DNA from: a virus
Taxonomy: Duplodnaviria; Caudoviricetes
IMG/VR virus record: IMGVR_UViG_3300035499_000522
Location: 64,001-128,000 of that record
Length of the DNA stretch: 64,000 bases
Reading direction: 5' to 3' (one strand)
The stretch's first letter is position 1; each line of letters opens with the position of its first letter. This document shows, one piece after another, positions 50,237 through 56,869 of the stretch. The position numbers were made by a program, and so were the translations under genes. The notes under the pieces are model-generated. The model saw only the letters and a program-made list of their open reading frames with translations. It was not told the origin of the DNA and ran no database searches.

Positions 50237-50324
50237 ATCTTCCTTTTACCTCCTTATAAAAAATAAAAGCCTTTACTATTTTTAAATGATAGTAAAGGCT
50301 TAGTTTTTAATTTAATTTGCCCTT

Positions 50325-50879
50325 TTAGTCAACAGGCTAATTAGTCTTTATATCCCTGTTTCCATTTGCGGCTTGGGCAAATTGAATAACATTTTGATAT
50401 TTATCCTTATCAAAAGTGTCAATAATATCTTGTGCGGCAGCAGCTGATTTAGGGAGGTCACTAATAACTTTAGCGGCAACCGCACCAATTGATTTGTTAT
50501 ATTCAAACTCTTGCTGAATAGTTTCATTAATATAATCGTAAAGATTATTATATTCATCTTGCGGAATTGTTTCAATAAGTTTACCAATAAAACCTGAACT
50601 CTACAAAGCATCATAGAGTTTGGCTTCGTCTTCCCGCTGTTTATCTGTAAATTTCAAATTAGTATACATATAAACAAGATGTAAATGGAAATACATATCA
50701 ATTTTAAGAGGATTATAGTATCCATTTTCTTTAGATTTCTAAAGAGTAACCATTAAAAGGTCATATTTATCATTTATTGGTAAATAATTCAATACTTCAA
50801 TTTCTGTATCATTAAAATTAAAAGTATTAATACTATTATCCTTTTTTAATTTTAAATTAGTATAACTAATTGTACTCAT
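50325..50879 (-). CDS. probable tail assembly chaperone
   Basis: AAGGAG RBS; 184 aa with TAG=Q; immediately upstream of the tape measure. Confidence 0.55.
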
Positions 50880-50921
50880 ATTTTTCTCCTTTTATTTCAA
50901 TATCTTTTTTCTATTACTATA

Positions 50922-50950
50922 AGTATAACATAAAAATTTTTATTTGTCAA
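50922..50950 (-). promoter_or_regulatory. sigmaA-type promoter inside the structural arm
   Basis: TTGACA-17-TATACT with TG. Confidence 0.7.
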
Positions 50951-50951
50951 G

Positions 50952-52040
50952 TTATTGAATTACATTTAAACCTAATTTTTTTATATTTTTATTTATATTA
51001 GAAATAGCTATTTCTTCTGCTTTTTTGTCTATATTATTATTAAAACTTTCTCGATTAGTTACATAAATATCTGTTAAAGCTTTAATCATTTCATTTTCAT
51101 TTTTTTTATCCAAAGCTTCATTAACTGCTTTTAATGTAGTAGCTATTGATGATATCTATATTAAATTAGCACTTGAGTTATATACTGCTTTTAATTGTTC
51201 GGTTCCTATATCACCAATTTGCCATCCCTTATCGCCATTTCTTAAAGATTCTTTAATTAAGGCTTCTGCAAGTGATTCAGTATTATAATTATTGCTATTG
51301 CCTATATAATTTATAGTTTTATATTTATCTATTGTTCTAAGAACTTTGTATGCTTCAAATGCATGACCTAAATTTCCTATATTTATTTTTTTTTGATGGT
51401 TGACTAAAGAATCCCATAAATTTGGTTTATCTAAAGATGTTATAATTTTATTAAGTTCATTTTCATTTTTTTCTAATTTATTTATTAATTTATTTATTGC
51501 TGTATTACTTAAAGATAAAGACATCTAATTAGACAACTTAGTTTCTTCATTAACAATTTTATAATCAGACAAAGTTAATGATATTGCTGGAAATAACTAT
51601 TGTAAAGTTAAATGTGCTTCTAGTAATTCTTCTTTGGATTGATATAAAATAGTATAAGTGATTTCCTAATCAGTTAAAATTTCTCTTATATAATGTAATA
51701 ATTTATATCCTTTAATAAAATATTGTGTTATTTCATTTATATCTTTTAAATTTTTAATATGCTTTTTTTGAGATACATATTTTTTTATAATTTTATTTAA
51801 ACCTGCATAACTTAAATCTTTTTCACCTTTATTGCTAGATATTGCTAAAGATTTTTTTTCTTCTAATGTAAAATTATTATATATAGTTATTAATTTTTTA
51901 TCAAATCTTTCTTTAGTTTTTAACCATTGAGAGATACTTTTTTGTATAGACACAATTGTATCATCATTAAAAACTATTTCTTTAGTTTTATCTTCAAATT
52001 TTTCTATAAATTCTTTTAAATAATCATACTAAGCTGCCAT
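50952..52040 (-). CDS. very AT-rich hypothetical protein (362 aa)
   Basis: Fragments 51156.. and 51666.. join by TAG readthrough; GGGGTGA RBS. Confidence 0.6.
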
Positions 52041-52065
52041 AATAAATCACCCCCAAAAAGATATA

Positions 52066-52097
52066 AAAAAAAGAGGATATATAAAATATCCTCTTTA
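52066..52097 (-). terminator. intrinsic terminator after the major tail gene
   Basis: AAAGAGGATAT-ATAAA-ATATCCTCTTT with an A-run on +. Confidence 0.65.
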
Positions 52098-52131
52098 TTT
52101 ATATTAATCAATTAAGATTAAAATTTAATTA

Positions 52132-52914
52132 TTAGTCGCCCTCTTCAGCACCAGTTAAGTAACTATCCTGATACTGATTATCCTTTATAGTAGAATCTCC
52201 TGCGAGTTCCTCATCAGTATAAGGCTTGAACTCTTCCTTAGGGTCAGAAGTATGTGTCATAACTGACTTGATTTCCTCTGTTGCAGAAGTACTATCCTCA
52301 ACAATCTGGATTACACAAAGAACCTTCTTAGTGCTATCAAAATAAGTGTAGCCGGGGAATGCGTCCATTGTGAAAGAGAATGTTGAAGGGTCGCCAGTTG
52401 AAGCCATTGTAAATGTAAAGTTAGACTGAATCTTTACGTTAGGGAATGTAATTTCAGCAGGCATATCAACACCTGTATCCTAACGTCTAAATAATGTACT
52501 AGCTTCTACATAGTAATAACCAGCGAAGTTCTCGGCATCAATCTGAAGTTCAGAAATAACATTACCGCCCTTGACTACATAATAGTCTACTAATACAGAA
52601 GTCTGAGATGTAATTTCTTTAGCCTGAAGACTCTTCTTGTCCTCGCCAATAGCTACTTCAATAACCTCACCTGTAACAGAGCCGTCTACCTCAGTCTTTA
52701 CAACAAAGATAGGAGCATCTTCACAAATTGTATCACTACCAAGAGCATCAGCTAAATCAATCTTACCAGAAGCGTCTGCAATAGTAGCAGTAGTTGTATG
52801 AACGTGTACTTTTTCTGTATTATCTTTACCCTTAATTAAACCTGCACCAGAAAGAATAGAGAAGCCAATAGGAGAGAGCAAAGCATCCTCAACCGTGAAT
52901 GTTAAAGTTTTTTC
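52132..52914 (-). CDS. major tail (tube) protein, exon 2 (one TAG)
   Basis: 'KTLTFTVEDALLSP', 'LFRR(Q)DTGVDMPAEITFP', 'FTMASTGDPSTFSFTMD'. Confidence 0.75.
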
Positions 52915-53995
52915 CATTTTTATTCTATATAGTTCGCTACGCTATATACGTTCTTTTAAGAACTGCTACACCTTTATATATACGTGTAGATTAGACTATA
53001 TCATCATCCTGCTCAATGCAGGAGCTTAGTGCTTCCATTGCCAAACGCTTGCAATGTACTCCCTTGCGGGATAGTCGTTGAACCTTTTTATTTTTTAAAC
53101 CTATCTTGTCTTTGAGTATTTTCGCTTTGAGTAATTTTCTATAAATTATCTAATTTATTATTTTTAGGATTATTATCAATATGGTCAATAACATATCCTT
53201 CTAAATCATAATCATTATGAAAAATACAATACACCAATCTATGAATATAATAATGTTTACTTTTGTTTGGGTAAAATGCTATTCTTTGATATTTTTGATT
53301 TTCATCTAAATACAAAAGTCTATTAGTCTTATTATTTTTAATTCTACCCATATTAGATATAGAATAATTTGCGTTAAATGGAATTTCTAGCCATTCTTCG
53401 CCATCTAAATCTTTTATATGGTATCTTGGCGGTCTTACTGCTTTATTTTGATTTTTTGATTGGTGTTCTTTTGAATTATCCTTGGCGGAAATCCATTCAA
53501 GATTATTTACATTATTATTTAATTTATTTTCGTCTTTATGATGTACATAAGGTAAATTATTAGGATTAGGAATAAAATATTCTGCTACTAATCTATGAGC
53601 ATATATCATTTTACTTAGCTTTTTATTAGAAGTGGATGATAGTCTATCTCCTAAAGCTAAAGCATATACCTAATATCCTACATTATCTACTTTACCAGAT
53701 AAAAACCTATTTGCTTTTTTACTATATAAGCGTCCATCTGAATAAATTAAATAATCATTATCTTCTTTTAAAGGTTTAAAATCTAAACTCGGCTGCTGAA
53801 CTTCTTCCATATTTATTTCTCCTTTATTTAAATTAAATATAAAAGACTTAACAGCAATTCACTAAGTATTTCTAAAAGATGTTACCATCTTTGGAAGGGC
53901 AAAAAATCTTTCATATTTTACTTATCATAACATAAAATAAGTAAAATGTCAATTTTTCCCTAAACGTACCTGCCTTAAGCGCAGACTAGGGCCGT
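52915..53995 (-). mobile_element. group I intron in the major tail gene (boundaries +/-1 nt, non-canonical 5' splice site)
   Basis: P3 CTTAGTG/CACTAAG, P4 TTGCTG/CAGCAG, P7 'TTCAACGACTAT'...'GATATAGTC', terminal G; internal guide matches the ligated exons. Confidence 0.8.
53088..53810 (-). CDS. intron-encoded HNH homing endonuclease (two HNH units; 2 TAG)
   Basis: 'HRLVAEYF..VHHKDENKLNNNVNNLEW' and 'HRLVYCIF..IDHIDNNPKNNKLDNL(Q)'; AAGGAG RBS. Confidence 0.85.
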
Positions 53996-54193
53996 CCCTT
54001 CCCAAGCTATAAGACGCGTATTACCACGACCACCTTGTGCATACACTGTGGTTGCTGCGCCTTCAATGGTGGAAGTTTTTGCTGTATCAATATAAAGGAC
54101 AGGCTGTCCTTTTCTAAAAAGCGTACTACCAATCTTTACATCAGACTTGGCTTTGAATACTACGTCGCATATTTCACGTACACCAAAACGCAT
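53996..54193 (-). CDS. major tail (tube) protein, exon 1
   Basis: AAGGAGG RBS; MRFGVREICDVVFK...AQGGRGNTRLIAWEG. Confidence 0.75.
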
Positions 54194-54226
54194 AGTTTTG
54201 TTTCCTCCTTAAAAATTATATTAGAT

Positions 54227-54973
54227 TTATGAATGAATGTCTCCCATCCAATCATCTATATCTTTTAAATCTTTTGCTCCAGCTAATTTAGCCCTCATAT
54301 ATAAATCATAATTTAAATATAAAGTAAATCGCTGAAATTCATCAAACAATTGATAAACTGTATACTAAGAAAAACTATTTATATCTTTCTACTCACCAAC
54401 AGCCAAAATTGAAATATATCTACTAATAATATTAACTTCTTTACTTTCATTTTTAATCTAAGCTACTTTTTCCTATCCCTTTTTTAGTTTATCAGCAATT
54501 TTTTTTGCTAATGCCGACTAAGGGTTATATTCTGGATTATCTTTATTTTTCTAATTTAAACAAAACATTTCAATTATGATTTGCTTAAATATTTCAAAAT
54601 TATTATTATTAATCTATCCTACTTCTTGTTCATCTTGTTTAAATATGATTGCTGTAGGTGTTAAAGAAAATGAATAGTTTGGAAATATTAATGTCAAAAG
54701 CATTAATACATTATTACAAGTTTTTCTCATATTAATATCATCATTATTTATCATTATTGACATTAATATTTCAAAATTTGTCCTATCAGCTAAATTAAAA
54801 TTGTCCTATTCACTTAAAATCCGCTCTTTGTTAAAATTTAATAGATTACATCCTGTATAAAAGCTTTCTTCTCCTATATATGAAATTTCTTTCAAAGTAG
54901 GCTAATGTATTGTTAATGTAGCTTCTACAAAAGGAATATCAGCTTTAGTTATTAACTATAAATAACTAACCAT
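54227..54973 (-). CDS. virion morphogenesis/tail assembly protein (many TAG)
   Basis: 248 aa open with TAG=Q; 'H(Q)PTLKEISYIGE', 'TVYQLFDEFQRF'. Confidence 0.55.
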
Positions 54974-54975
54974 TA

Positions 54976-55554
54976 TTAATCTGCGGCGGGTATGGAGTCA
55001 TCAGAACCATGAACCGCACGGTACATCAAAGTATAACCAGAAAGAGTTTCATCTAAAATAAGTTCATTACATCCTAAATAATTAAGAGTACCTATTCCAG
55101 ATAATCGTGTATTATTTAATATTCCATCTATGTAGCCGCATATCTTTAGCGGACGTAATCTATAATTTCCTATATCCCAATAGTCTGTATGGCAAAGTAC
55201 ATCAAAACTAATAGTGCAATCTCTAAATTCTGTATTATTAGTCTACGTAAAATTATCATATGAAATTAAAATATAGGATTTAACTTCTTCGTGTTCAGGA
55301 AATCTCAGTTTAGGTTCTAACTTAATATAGCCTTCTTCTCTTAATTTAGCAATACTCATATCCTTTAGAATATCCTTATACTAAGGGTCATCTAAATTAT
55401 CTAAGCAATCTTTTGTATTAATTACTAATAACCTCTTTAACTCATCGCTGTAAGGTCTACTTTCTATAAATAACTTTCTGAGTATTGTTTCTGTGTCTTT
55501 TTCACACTAAAGAAAAGAAGATTTAAGTTCAAATCTCATTAAATCTCTTTTCAT
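54976..55554 (-). CDS. probable tail terminator/neck protein
   Basis: AAGGAG RBS; 'ISFDVLCH', 'RPLKICGYIDGILN..LSGIGTL'; position in the module. Confidence 0.55.
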
Positions 55555-55574
55555 TTATATTCTCCTTTTATCTC

Positions 55575-56561
55575 TTAAATGGATTCAATAACAATAGGTA
55601 AGATGATAGAATCTTCCTCATTCTCCATTTTATATGTTAAATTAAATTTACCGCTTTTACCAGTAGCAATTTCAATAACAACCTCATTATCAGTTTGGCT
55701 TAAAATGATAACTTTTTTACTATCAACTTGCCATTTTCCGCCAGTAATATTTTTAACCTAATAATTTATTGTATCATATGGTTTTACTTTAGTTGCCCCA
55801 ATAATTTGCGGCAATTCTTTATCTATAACTTCTGGCTTCTAAGATTCTAATTCTTTCTTTATTTGCTCTTGTTCTATTGTATTTTTATATGTTTCAGCTA
55901 ATTGAACTTCAATAATTCCATCTCCGCTCTCATCATCAACTGCAACAATTTCCCAAGGCTCATTATCAATAAAGATTTTCTAAAATCTATGAAAATAATT
56001 TAAAGTTTCTTCATTCTTGGTTATGTATATAATAGCTGAATAATTAGGCGAACTCCAAGTAATATTAGATTTCTATCCCCATACCTCAGTAGTTTCAACA
56101 GGTCCACGATAATAAACTTTATAATTATGGCCATTAATCTCTACTTCTTTATCGCAGCACCTAATCTCCGCTCTAAAATAAGCTTTTTCTTTTTTGTACC
56201 AAAGATATACAATCCAATAGGTTTCACTCTAAGTATCATAAAAAGTTGAACCGGGGGCAATTAGAGTTTTTACCTAGCCCTAAGAAGCTTTACCAGTCTT
56301 CGCCGCATTAAGCTATATATCTTCATATGGAATTGAAATAATCTAATTATCATAATCAGCTTTTGTTTTATCTGGATTAATTAAACACCTAAATTCTCTA
56401 TTATATTCTCCTGTTTCATCTTGAAGTAAAATCGTAGTTGCTTGATATGAATAAAGCAAAGCTTTTTTTAAAGAACTAAGTTTATCATAATTCATTCTAT
56501 CTGTTTGGATAGCACCACCACGAAATTCTAATCTCTTAGTTAAGTTGTCTAATCCTGACAT
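55575..56561 (-). CDS. probable head-closure/neck protein
   Basis: Extends fragment 56343..56561 by readthrough to TAA at 55575. Confidence 0.55.
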
Positions 56562-56869
56562 ACTATCACCAACTTATTAATTAAAGATAAACATTCAAAT
56601 ATTGTTCTTCTATACAAAAGAAAATCAGAATCTTGAGTTAAAAGAAATAATCCTTCTAACTTGCAAATAAGCGGCAACATGGTATCTTGCTGCTTATGCA
56701 TTAATCTATTTATTCCACTTAATTCTTCTATAATAGTTTCAAGCGGTTTTTCCCAATCTTTATTTTCTTCTCTACAAGGAAGTAATTTATATATTTGATT
56801 AGTTATCTTCATTAATTCTTTTTCAATAACTGAATTATCTATTTCAAAATTATATTTTAATATCATCAC
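56549..56869 (-). CDS. hypothetical protein of the head-tail region
   Basis: Intact ORF with GTGA overlap. Confidence 0.55.
   Translation of the reverse strand: MMILKYNFEIDNSVIEKELMKITNQIYKLLPCREENKDWEKPLETIIEELSGINRLMHKQQDTMLPLICKLEGLFLLTQDSDFLLYRRTIFECLSLINKLVIVCQD

What the first reader, a model, noticed from the sequence alone, without database searches (positions are those of the whole stretch)
52914..53998. Group I intron in the major tail gene lacks the canonical U.G 5' splice site
Seen: the internal guide (+ strand 53891-53909, ttggaagggcaaaaaatct) mirrors the ligated exons GGAAGGG-N-AAAAAACT, fixing the register. The base opposite the guide G is A, not U. Splicing must give either WEG-K-KT (A.G pair, intron 52914-53994) or WEG-E-KT (cleavage after a G-C pair, intron 52915-53995). 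A canonical U would create GGG-UAA, a stop. The P1 loop is about 90 nt and holds extra hairpins, including an AGGGAAAAAT segment that can sequester the guide. Established: the U.G wobble is nearly universal in group I introns. Inference: a non-canonical and possibly structurally regulated ribozyme in an essential structural gene.
Basis: partly seen in the sequence, partly recalled or inferred. Interest (0 to 1): 0.7.

Follow-up and report, generated by a model that had tools for sequence, protein, structure and literature searches.

The report
Tail-tube intron without U-G splice pair
A self-splicing (group I) intron carrying its own homing enzyme splits the single tail-tube gene of this gut phage, and no reading of its 5' cut site gives the textbook U-G pair; it most likely cuts after a G, a rare rule already shown by experiment for related 'IStron' ribozymes.

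Summary
A real IA2-type group I intron (most likely 53995-52915, minus strand, 1081 nt) with an HNH homing-endonuclease gene splits the only copy of a probable tail-tube gene. Its guide (53909-53893) pairs with both exons, and this pairing covaries in relatives. None of 8 intron-bearing alleles has a U at the last exon base in either register.

There are four reasons:
- A sister intron at the same site (L115) has a canonical GGU| U.G pair at exactly that helix position.
- 122 of 123 uninterrupted alleles have Glu or Asp after WEG, and none has Lys.
- Relatives end in ...AUG|.
- Group B IStron ribozymes are proven to splice after a G of AGGG-type sites (PMC4227781).

The window differs from those IStrons. 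The base after the cut, which faces the guide G, is A (G in one allele), not U, so no U.G landmark remains.

The 96-nt P1 insert holds a conserved sigma-70-type promoter, probably for the endonuclease. The 'sequestering' segment is an ordinary P1 extension. Splicing itself is not shown: the RNA runs held only relatives.

This scan has already reported several tail-tube introns cut after G on other genomes. I class it as a new variant of a known rarity.

The parts
53996..54193 (-). Exon 1 of the probable tail-tube gene (66 codons, MRFG...LIAWEG). It has a strong Shine-Dalgarno sequence, AAGGAGG, upstream.
   Evidence: the unspliced ORF runs on 6 codons to TAA at 53977-53975
52915..53995 (-). 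Group I intron in the favoured register a, 1081 nt (register b would be 52914-53994).
53996..54002 (-). P1, exon strand GGAAGGG. G53996 is the predicted last exon base and is paired to C53899.
   Evidence: covaries in L022 (GGAGGGG/CCCCUCC)
53958..53991 (-). Hairpin 1, which branches out right after the splice site (CCCUA...UAGGG with an inner CUGC/GCAG stem).
   Evidence: both stems change in a compensating way in L021 and L022
53951..53957 (-). P1 extension (AAAAAUU), an exon-2 mimic that pairs with the 5' part of the guide.
   Evidence: changes to AAAAG.. in L021 and L022 together with exon 2 and the guide
53924..53952 (-). Sigma-70-type promoter TTGACA-17 nt-TATGAT (TG-extended) inside the P1 insert, probably for the endonuclease gene.
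   Evidence: 11 of 12 matches; kept with a 17-nt spacer in all 8 alleles
53915..53947 (-). Hairpin 2 (11-bp stem) overlapping the promoter spacer and the -10 element.
53893..53909 (-). Internal guide AGAUUUUUU-G-C-CCUUCC. C53899 pairs with G53996, and G53900 faces A53995 or exon-2 G52914.
53875..53892 (-). P2, AAAGAUG-GUAA-CAUCUUU.
   Evidence: compensating changes in all alleles
53852..53867 (-). 5' strands of P3 (53867-53860) and P4 (53856-53852). Their partners are at 53031-53025 and 53798-53794.
   Evidence: P3 U>C with A>G in type B; P4/P6 placed by comparison with L115
53820..53846 (-). P5 hairpin UCUUUUAU/AUAAAGGA, which encloses the endonuclease Shine-Dalgarno sequence.
   Evidence: read; inference
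53088..53810 (-). Homing endonuclease gene (240 aa, two in-frame TAG read as Gln) in the P6 loop.
   Evidence: (HNH_3 8.2e-20, NUMOD4 1.4e-8)
52926..53084 (-). 3' half of the ribozyme: P6' (53084-53082), P7 (53076-53072 with 52998-52994), P7.1 (53071-53060), P7.2 (53056-53036), P3', P8 (53023-53007), P9 (52989-52966), P9.1 (52963-52950) and P9.2 (52948-52926).
   Evidence: 97.8% of cells paired, 13 pairs changed on both sides, 0 of 500 shuffles reach this
52915..52925 (-). 3' tail GAAUAAAAAUG. G52915 is the predicted terminal (omega) G.
   Evidence: relatives end ...AUG| by reading frame
52132..52914 (-). Exon 2 (EKTLTFTVEDAL...), with one in-frame TAG at 52482-52480 read as Gln. The ATG at 52917 belongs to the intron tail and has no Shine-Dalgarno sequence.

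Best explanation
This is a mobile IA2-type group I intron that must be spliced out of the pre-mRNA of the phage's only tail-tube gene.

Shown by sequence and comparison:
- The guide holds the exon-1 end (7 bp) and exon 2 (6 or more bp) side by side.
- The ribozyme core is kept by compensating changes.
- An HNH/NUMOD4 endonuclease gene sits in P6.
- That gene has its own conserved promoter in the enlarged P1 loop, and its ribosome-binding site is folded into P5.

Inferred:
- The first cut falls after G53996, the 7th pair of P1, which here is a G-C pair.
- The second cut falls after G52915.
- This joins GGG|GAA to give ...LIAWEG-E-KTLTF.

The layout is that of group B IStron ribozymes. Those cut after the G of an AGGG-type site, one base before the nucleotide that faces the guide G, next to an internal loop. 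In this lineage that nucleotide is A (G in one allele) instead of U, so no U.G pair is left. The cut site is then presumably set by its position in the P1 helix and at the junction, not by a wobble pair.
For: Intron and guide:
- Searches support the intron. Searches support the guide.
- P1 covaries in L022 (A>G with U>C). P10 covaries in L021 (10 bp) and L022.

Register a:
1. L115 has a sister intron at the same site, with the same tail and the same exon 2. It has GGU|UAA and the guide ..UUUUUU-A-G-CCUUCC. Its U.G is the 7th pair and exon-2 +1 is a mismatch. This is the same architecture as the window, with G-C at the 7th position.
2. Across 123 distinct uninterrupted junctions, the residue after WEG is E 116, D 6, TAG (Gln under this phage's code) 1 and K 0. 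Register a gives E in all 8 alleles. Register b gives K in 7.
3. Relatives whose frame fixes the junction end ...AUG|. The terL paralogue is fixed by phrog_15503 coordinates. Acinetobacter phage vB_MZM_4AB-P is also fixed.
4. PMC4227781 reports that BcISt1 splices after the G of AGGG by RT-PCR. It also reports IA2 ribozymes with a GAAUAA/GAAUAU motif after P9.2, as here, with the guide G facing +1 and followed by a loop.

Need for splicing:
- The gene is single-copy in the genome.
- There is no Shine-Dalgarno sequence before the exon-2 ATG, whereas most neighbouring genes have one.

Promoter. Consensus promoters also lie before the endonuclease genes of L200 and L211.
Against: - No RNA evidence exists. 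The three sequencing runs that were found held only relatives and showed no spliced junction.
- A purine at -1 is expected to be very poor. Reversing T-G to G-T at that position abolished splicing of the Anabaena intron (PMC12355055).
- In group B IStrons a U.G still exists at +1. Here it does not, so the precedent is only partial.
- The guide G is kept in both intron types. Canonical geometry (guide G opposite -1, with P10 starting next to it) fits register b.
- Type B alleles have a weak P1 (two mismatches, -7.4 kcal/mol), which I cannot explain.
- Only about four independent lineages carry the trait.
Confidence: 0.62

Rival explanations
1. Register b. The cut falls after A53995, which faces guide G53900 as an A.G pair standing in for U.G. 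The terminal G is G52914, and the product is WEG-K-KT.
For: - The guide G is kept in both intron types, and P10 then starts directly beside it, which is the textbook geometry.
- A U there would create a UAA stop, which would explain why the site cannot be canonical.
- The Gly wobble base avoids U even though U is free in coding (G in 3 alleles, A in 5, against GGT in 99 of 123 intron-less alleles).
- A related intron class (L204) seems to cut after an A that faces the guide G.
- Clostridium phage D-1873 has Lys at this codon.
Against: - Lys occurs in 0 of 123 uninterrupted alleles of this clade.
- In the canonical sister L115 the cleavage pair is one position earlier, and the position facing exon-2 +1 is a mismatch there too.
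- The intron tail of relatives ends AUG|.
- L022 would have G.G at the cut.
Confidence: 0.2
2. The intron is catalytically crippled or needs help. Loss of the U.G pair makes self-splicing poor, and the phage depends on a protein cofactor (for example the intron's own endonuclease acting as a maturase, or a host factor), or gets by on inefficient splicing.
For: - Purines at -1 abolish or cripple tested ribozymes (PMC12355055).
- Type B P1 is weak.
- J5/4 is unusually long because the endonuclease start codon lies in it.
Against: - P1, P10 and the core covary across phages whose tube proteins are only about 60% identical, which argues for selection on RNA function.
- A tail tube is needed in hundreds of copies per virion.
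- BcISt1 splices after G in vivo (PMC4227781).
Confidence: 0.1
3. There is no splicing. The gene is expressed as two polypeptides: the 72-aa exon-1 product, and exon 2 translated from ATG 52917.
For: An in-frame ATG precedes exon 2 in all alleles.
Against: - That ATG is simply the conserved intron tail ..AAAUG, which relatives in other genes also have.
- It has no Shine-Dalgarno sequence, unlike most neighbouring genes.
- The guide's covariation with both exons would then be pointless.
- The break lies inside the most conserved motif of the protein.
Confidence: 0.04

Closest known systems
Ribozymes of group B (IS607-type) IStrons, e.g. BcISt1 of Bacillus cereus (Tourasse, Stabell and Kolsto 2014, PMC4227781)
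   Same: - IA2 architecture with P7.1/P7.2 and P9.1/P9.2.
- A GAAUAA-type motif after P9.2.
- Target ending in ..AGGG.
- Last exon base is G.
- The guide G faces the first intron base and is followed by a loop or junction.
- Splicing after G has been shown there by RT-PCR.
   Different: - No IS607 or transposase cargo; an HNH homing endonuclease sits in P6 instead.
- The 3' end is ..AUG, not ..CGG.
- The first intron base is A (G in L022), not U, so even the shifted U.G landmark is missing.
- Type B alleles end in GGA.
Sister intron at the same codon in IMGVR_UViG_3300045988_178138 (L115)
   Same: - Same insertion point, identical 3' tail and identical exon-2 start.
- Same P2-P4 signature and a homologous endonuclease.
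- Long P1 loop.
- Mismatch at exon-2 +1.
   Different: - Canonical GGU| with U.G as the 7th pair and three further pairs after it.
- The endonuclease ORF starts in the P1 loop and runs through the guide and P2-P6.
- No promoter in P1.
Phage T4 td intron with I-TevI (group IA2); from my own knowledge
   Same: A mobile IA2 intron in a phage gene. The endonuclease gene lies in a peripheral loop, has its own promoter inside the intron, and has a structure-masked ribosome-binding site.
   Different: T4 td has a canonical U.G pair, a GIY-YIG enzyme and a DNA-metabolism host gene.
Tail-tube introns cut after G reported earlier in this scan (e1-5914328, e1-5666490, e1-5822541, e1-5686772)
   Same: Phage tail-tube genes split by group I introns that are read as cutting after a G held in a G-C pair, and filed next to group B IStrons.
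   Different: As summarised, those keep a U.G one base after the cut, and the window's lineage does not. I did not see their sequences.

Membership tests
Group I intron (Rfam RF00028) | Covariance-model match at or above the gathering score | tested here: not met
   23.2 bits against a gathering score of 50, E 0.0026, covering only the 3' half. The ORF in P6 and the 96-nt P1 insert break the model. The paralogue scores 90.4 bits and the sister L204 85.2 bits, so both pass.
Group I intron (Rfam RF00028) | Conserved core helices P3-P9 supported by covariation | tested here: met
   38 pairs tested: 97.8% paired and 13 changed on both sides; 0 of 500 shuffles reach this, and slid controls give 32-50%.
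Group I intron (Rfam RF00028) | Guide pairing with the 5' exon (P1) and the 3' exon (P10) | tested here: met
   7 bp plus 6-9 bp, covarying in L021 and L022.
Group I intron (Rfam RF00028) | [quoted passage not shown] | tested here: not met
   Exon 1 has no U in its last 8 nt. The cleavage pair is G-C (register a) or A.G (register b), in all 8 alleles.
Group I intron (Rfam RF00028) | Terminal G before the 3' splice site | tested here: met
   G52915 (register a) or G52914 (register b).
Group I intron (Rfam RF00028) | Self-splicing with guanosine | not testable with these tools
   The sequencing runs held only relatives.
Subgroup IA2 | Two extra hairpins P7.1 and P7.2 between P7 and P3', and an extended P9 (P9.1, P9.2) | tested here: met
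   53071-53060, 53056-53036, 52963-52950 and 52948-52926, all with compensating changes.
Group B IStron-type ribozyme | Last exon base is a G of a GG-ending site (AGGG/TGGG/GAGG) | tested here: inconclusive
   The sequence fits (AAGGG| in the window, GAGGGG| in L022), but the junction is inferred rather than seen, and type B alleles end in GGA.
Group B IStron-type ribozyme | U.G pair shifted to the first intron base, followed by an internal loop | tested here: not met
   The guide G faces A53995 (G in L022). The loop or three-way junction is present.
Group B IStron-type ribozyme | IS607-type transposon cargo after P9.2; 3' end CGG | tested here: not met
   No ORF after P9.2. The cargo is an HNH endonuclease in P6, and the 3' end is AUG.
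HNH homing endonuclease | HNH_3 (PF13392) and NUMOD4 (PF07463) above the Pfam cut-offs; open frame | tested here: met
   70.6 and 35.3 bits. The frame is open only with TAG read as Gln.
Phage tail tube protein | Homology to a tail tube family or fold | tested here: inconclusive
   phrog_2729 'virion structural protein' at 1e-15 and 6e-31. A profile of 12 homologues hits solved tail tube proteins 8k98 and 9jgh only at E 0.0065. The AlphaFold model has pLDDT 43.6 and is unusable. The gene order (two genes before the giant tape-measure gene) fits.

The most novel reading that the evidence does not exclude
This phage intron lineage picks its 5' splice site without any wobble pair. At one and the same codon, sister introns carry U.G (L115), G-C (window, L021, L022) or A.A (type B) at the homologous P1 position, and a neighbouring class carries A.G (L204). 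The ribozyme would then measure position in the P1 helix and junction, not read the U.G. That makes these alleles a natural series for asking what the U.G pair is really needed for.
Probability: 0.4. Interest if true: 0.7.

Novelty: new variant of a known kind. Interest (0 to 1): 0.5.

Why it matters
[quoted passage not shown] Splicing after a G has been shown only for IStron ribozymes, and those keep a U.G one base further on.

If this intron splices, as the selection on its guide and the single-copy essential gene suggest, it does so with no U.G at all. Its sister alleles at the same codon give ready-made controls.

It also shows that automatic annotation splits such tail-tube genes into a 66-75-aa stub and a headless second ORF. 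The protein collection holds 338 short ORFs (39-126 aa) matching exon 1, and many of them are such stubs.

Tried and rejected
- Sequencing runs. Only three runs shared about 5% of the words. The contigs laid were from relatives or short pieces, and no joint across the intron was seen. Two contigs from one RNA library cross the 3' boundary unspliced, but DNA carry-over cannot be excluded. This is no evidence either way.
- AlphaFold model of the uninterrupted homologue: pLDDT 43.6, not used.
- Pfam found nothing for either exon.
- Rfam on the whole window found no intron.
- Pattern scans for more type A alleles gave only chance hits. The metagenome scan added one type B allele. A scan for WEG followed by a stop codon found only L115.
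- My first hand fold placed the endonuclease ORF in P5. Comparison with L115 moved it to P6.
- A splice after U54005 or U54004 was rejected. It would delete the invariant WEG or create a UAA stop.
- Extending exon 1 into hairpin 1 was rejected. There is an in-frame TAA, and the frame is not conserved in relatives.
- A second gene copy was ruled out.
- A P1+P2 length 'ruler' compared with the terL paralogue (13 bp against 14 or 15) was not decisive.
- Literature searches for natural purine-ending 5' exons gave only general statements until the IStron paper was read.

Full report
**What is there.** The gene lies on the minus strand. The phage reads TAG as Gln: nearly every late ORF needs this.
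- Exon 1 (54193-53996) encodes MRFG...LIAWEG.
- Exon 2 (52914-52132) encodes EKTLTFTVEDAL...
- On the profile phrog_2729, exon 1 covers positions 3-58 and exon 2 covers positions 59-241, so nothing is missing between them.
- Uninterrupted homologues read ...TGG GAA GGT GAA AAA ACT... (MT835936.1, Enterococcus phage EF1 and many IMG/VR contigs).
- The window belongs to a 136,730-bp virus record that holds only this one copy of the gene.
- 'Tail tube' is likely but only weakly shown. A profile of homologues hits solved tail tube proteins at E 0.0065, and the gene lies two genes before a giant tape-measure gene.

**The intron is real.**
- Rfam sees only the 3' half, at 23.2 bits.
- That half is 78% identical to an ORF-less paralogue in the terminase gene of the same genome, which scores 90.4 bits. 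It is about 70-75% identical to introns of Lak, crAss-like and other phages.
- On an alignment of ten relatives, my helices P7, P7.1, P7.2, P8, P9, P9.1 and P9.2 are 97.8% paired. Thirteen pairs are changed on both sides, no shuffle out of 500 reaches this, and slid controls give 32-50%.
- P7.1 and P7.2 place it in subgroup IA2.
- P2 (GUAA loop) and P3 show compensating changes among alleles.
- The 240-aa ORF (53810-53088) is an HNH_3 + NUMOD4 endonuclease with two TAG codons. Comparison with L115 puts it in the P6 loop. Its start codon lies in J5/4, and its Shine-Dalgarno sequence is paired inside P5.

**The guide and the missing U.**
- The guide AGAUUUUUU-G-C-CCUUCC (53909-53893) lies directly before P2.
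- It pairs with GGAAGGG of exon 1 and with AAAAAA of exon 2.
- Relatives prove the pairing. L022 has GGAGGGG with CCCCUCC. L021 has exon 2 AAAAGACUUU with guide AAAGUCUUUU.
- I found eight intron-bearing alleles of two types:
  - Type A: window, L021, L022.
  - Type B: L017 (identical to L018), L023, L028, L034.
- They sit in phages whose tube proteins are about 60% identical.
- None has a U at the last exon base. The Gly codon is GGG (type A) or GGA (type B), and the next base is A (G in L022).

**Which phosphate is cut.** Only two registers keep the frame.
- Register a: GGG|A...AUG|GAA, giving Glu.
- Register b: GGGA|C...AUGG|AA, giving Lys.

Four lines favour register a.
1. L115 carries a sister intron at the same codon with the same tail and the same exon 2, and it is canonical. 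It reads GGU|UAA with guide UUUUUU-A-G-CCUUCC. Its U.G is the 7th pair of P1. Exon-2 +1 is mismatched, and P10 follows. The window has the same architecture with G53996-C53899 at the 7th position.
2. Among 123 distinct uninterrupted junctions, the residue after WEG is Glu 116, Asp 6 and TAG (Gln) 1, never Lys.
3. Relatives whose frame fixes the junction end in ...AUG|. The terminase paralogue is fixed by profile coordinates, and the Acinetobacter phage intron has only that one G.
4. Precedent. Group B IStron ribozymes are IA2, carry the same GAAUAA/GAAUAU motif after P9.2 and sit after AGGG/TGGG/GAGG sites. BcISt1 was shown by RT-PCR to splice after the G. The U that pairs with the guide G is the first intron base there, and it is followed by an internal loop (PMC4227781).

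Register b keeps some weight. The guide G is conserved in both types, and the P10 geometry would be textbook. The Gly wobble base avoids the otherwise dominant U. A neighbouring intron class (L204) seems to cut after an A that faces the guide G.

**How this differs from the IStron rule.** In IStrons a U.G still marks the site, one base late. Here the base facing the guide G is A or G, so no U.G remains. In type A, hairpin 1 (53991-53958) branches off immediately after the cut. Then AAAAAUU (53957-53951) pairs with the 5' part of the guide. That segment changes together with exon 2 and the guide in L021 and L022, as a normal P1 extension should. Type B has a weaker P1 with two mismatches, which I cannot explain.

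**The long P1 insert.** It holds TTGACA-17-TATGAT with a TG extension (53952-53924). Both hexamers and the 17-nt spacing are kept in all eight alleles, although the spacers differ completely between the two types. Related introns L200 and L211 carry consensus promoters before their endonuclease genes in another loop. A transcript started here would lack exon 1 and would serve as endonuclease mRNA. This step is inferred.

**Is splicing needed and likely?**
- The gene is single-copy.
- The ATG before exon 2 is just the conserved intron tail, and it lacks the Shine-Dalgarno sequence that most neighbouring genes have.
- Covariation of the guide with both exons in diverged phages indicates selection for RNA function.
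- Direct evidence is missing.
- Experiments on other introns make a purine at -1 look bad. PMC12355055 reports that G-T in place of T-G abolishes splicing. PMC2504315 states that virtually all group I introns follow a U.

**Novelty.** Splicing after G is published for IStrons. Earlier reports of this scan describe several tail-tube introns read the same way on other genomes; I used them as a lead to the paper and did not see their sequences. What may be new here:
- The loss of even the shifted U.G.
- The allelic series at one codon: U.G, G-C and A.A.
- The promoter in P1.

I therefore rate it a new variant of a known rarity, of moderate interest.

Noticed in passing
window 50300-56600 and throughout; exon 2 TAG at 52482-52480; HEG TAGs near 53670 and 53150: In-frame TAG codons in nearly all late ORFs disappear as stops when TAG is read as Gln (genetic code 15-like recoding). 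ARAGORN found no tRNA gene in this window.
   Followed up: partly
G000:C1:128699-128875 (-), just outside the window = L005:1554-1781 (-): An ORF-less paralogous group I intron (90.4 bits) sits in the terminase large-subunit gene. It has a canonical CCACGU| U.G pair and the junction ...ATFPR|AYSKS.
   Followed up: yes
codons W64-E67 of the tube gene; proteins P0002-P0120: This is an insertion hotspot. The collection holds 338 short ORFs matching exon 1. Many stop at or just after WEG, including about 25 clusters of exactly 66 aa; others continue SI, CI, LIL, ED, EEGIAVLTA, WVFASLSET and so on. Others break earlier, at AWD|CF..LAHE. Their DNA could not be fetched.
   Followed up: partly
L204:2783-3054, L211:2783-3770, L200: A related intron class (85.2 bits) sits 4 nt upstream, after UGGGA. 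Keeping WEGEK requires a cut after an A that faces the guide G (CGUGGG/CUCACG, then A.G). In L211 the base before exon 2 (AGGUGAA) is A, not G, so it may have a non-G terminal nucleotide.
   Followed up: partly
L243:2798-3665 and L197:2798-4027: Two further, different introns lie nearby. L243 is canonical (GCU|...AUCG|UGG, between the Ala and Trp codons). L197 seems to lie after the Glu codon (GGC GAA|...CUUG|AAA), which would again leave an A facing a guide G.
   Followed up: no
L200 and L211, about 100 nt after their P4: Consensus sigma-70 promoters (TTGACA-17-TATAAT in L200, TTGATT-17-TATAAT in L211) lie directly before the intron endonuclease genes, in a different loop from the one used in the window.
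   Followed up: no
L115:2799-3766: In the canonical sister intron the endonuclease ORF starts in the P1 loop and is read straight through the guide, P2, P3, P4, P5 and P6, so the ribozyme core doubles as coding sequence.
   Followed up: partly
Genome-contig loci L189-L253: Contigs of this roughly 135-kb phage group are binned into MAGs labelled Bacilli, Lachnospiraceae, Clostridia, even Methanobrevibacter and Treponema, from rabbit and ruminant guts. These bin labels are not reliable evidence of the host.
   Followed up: no
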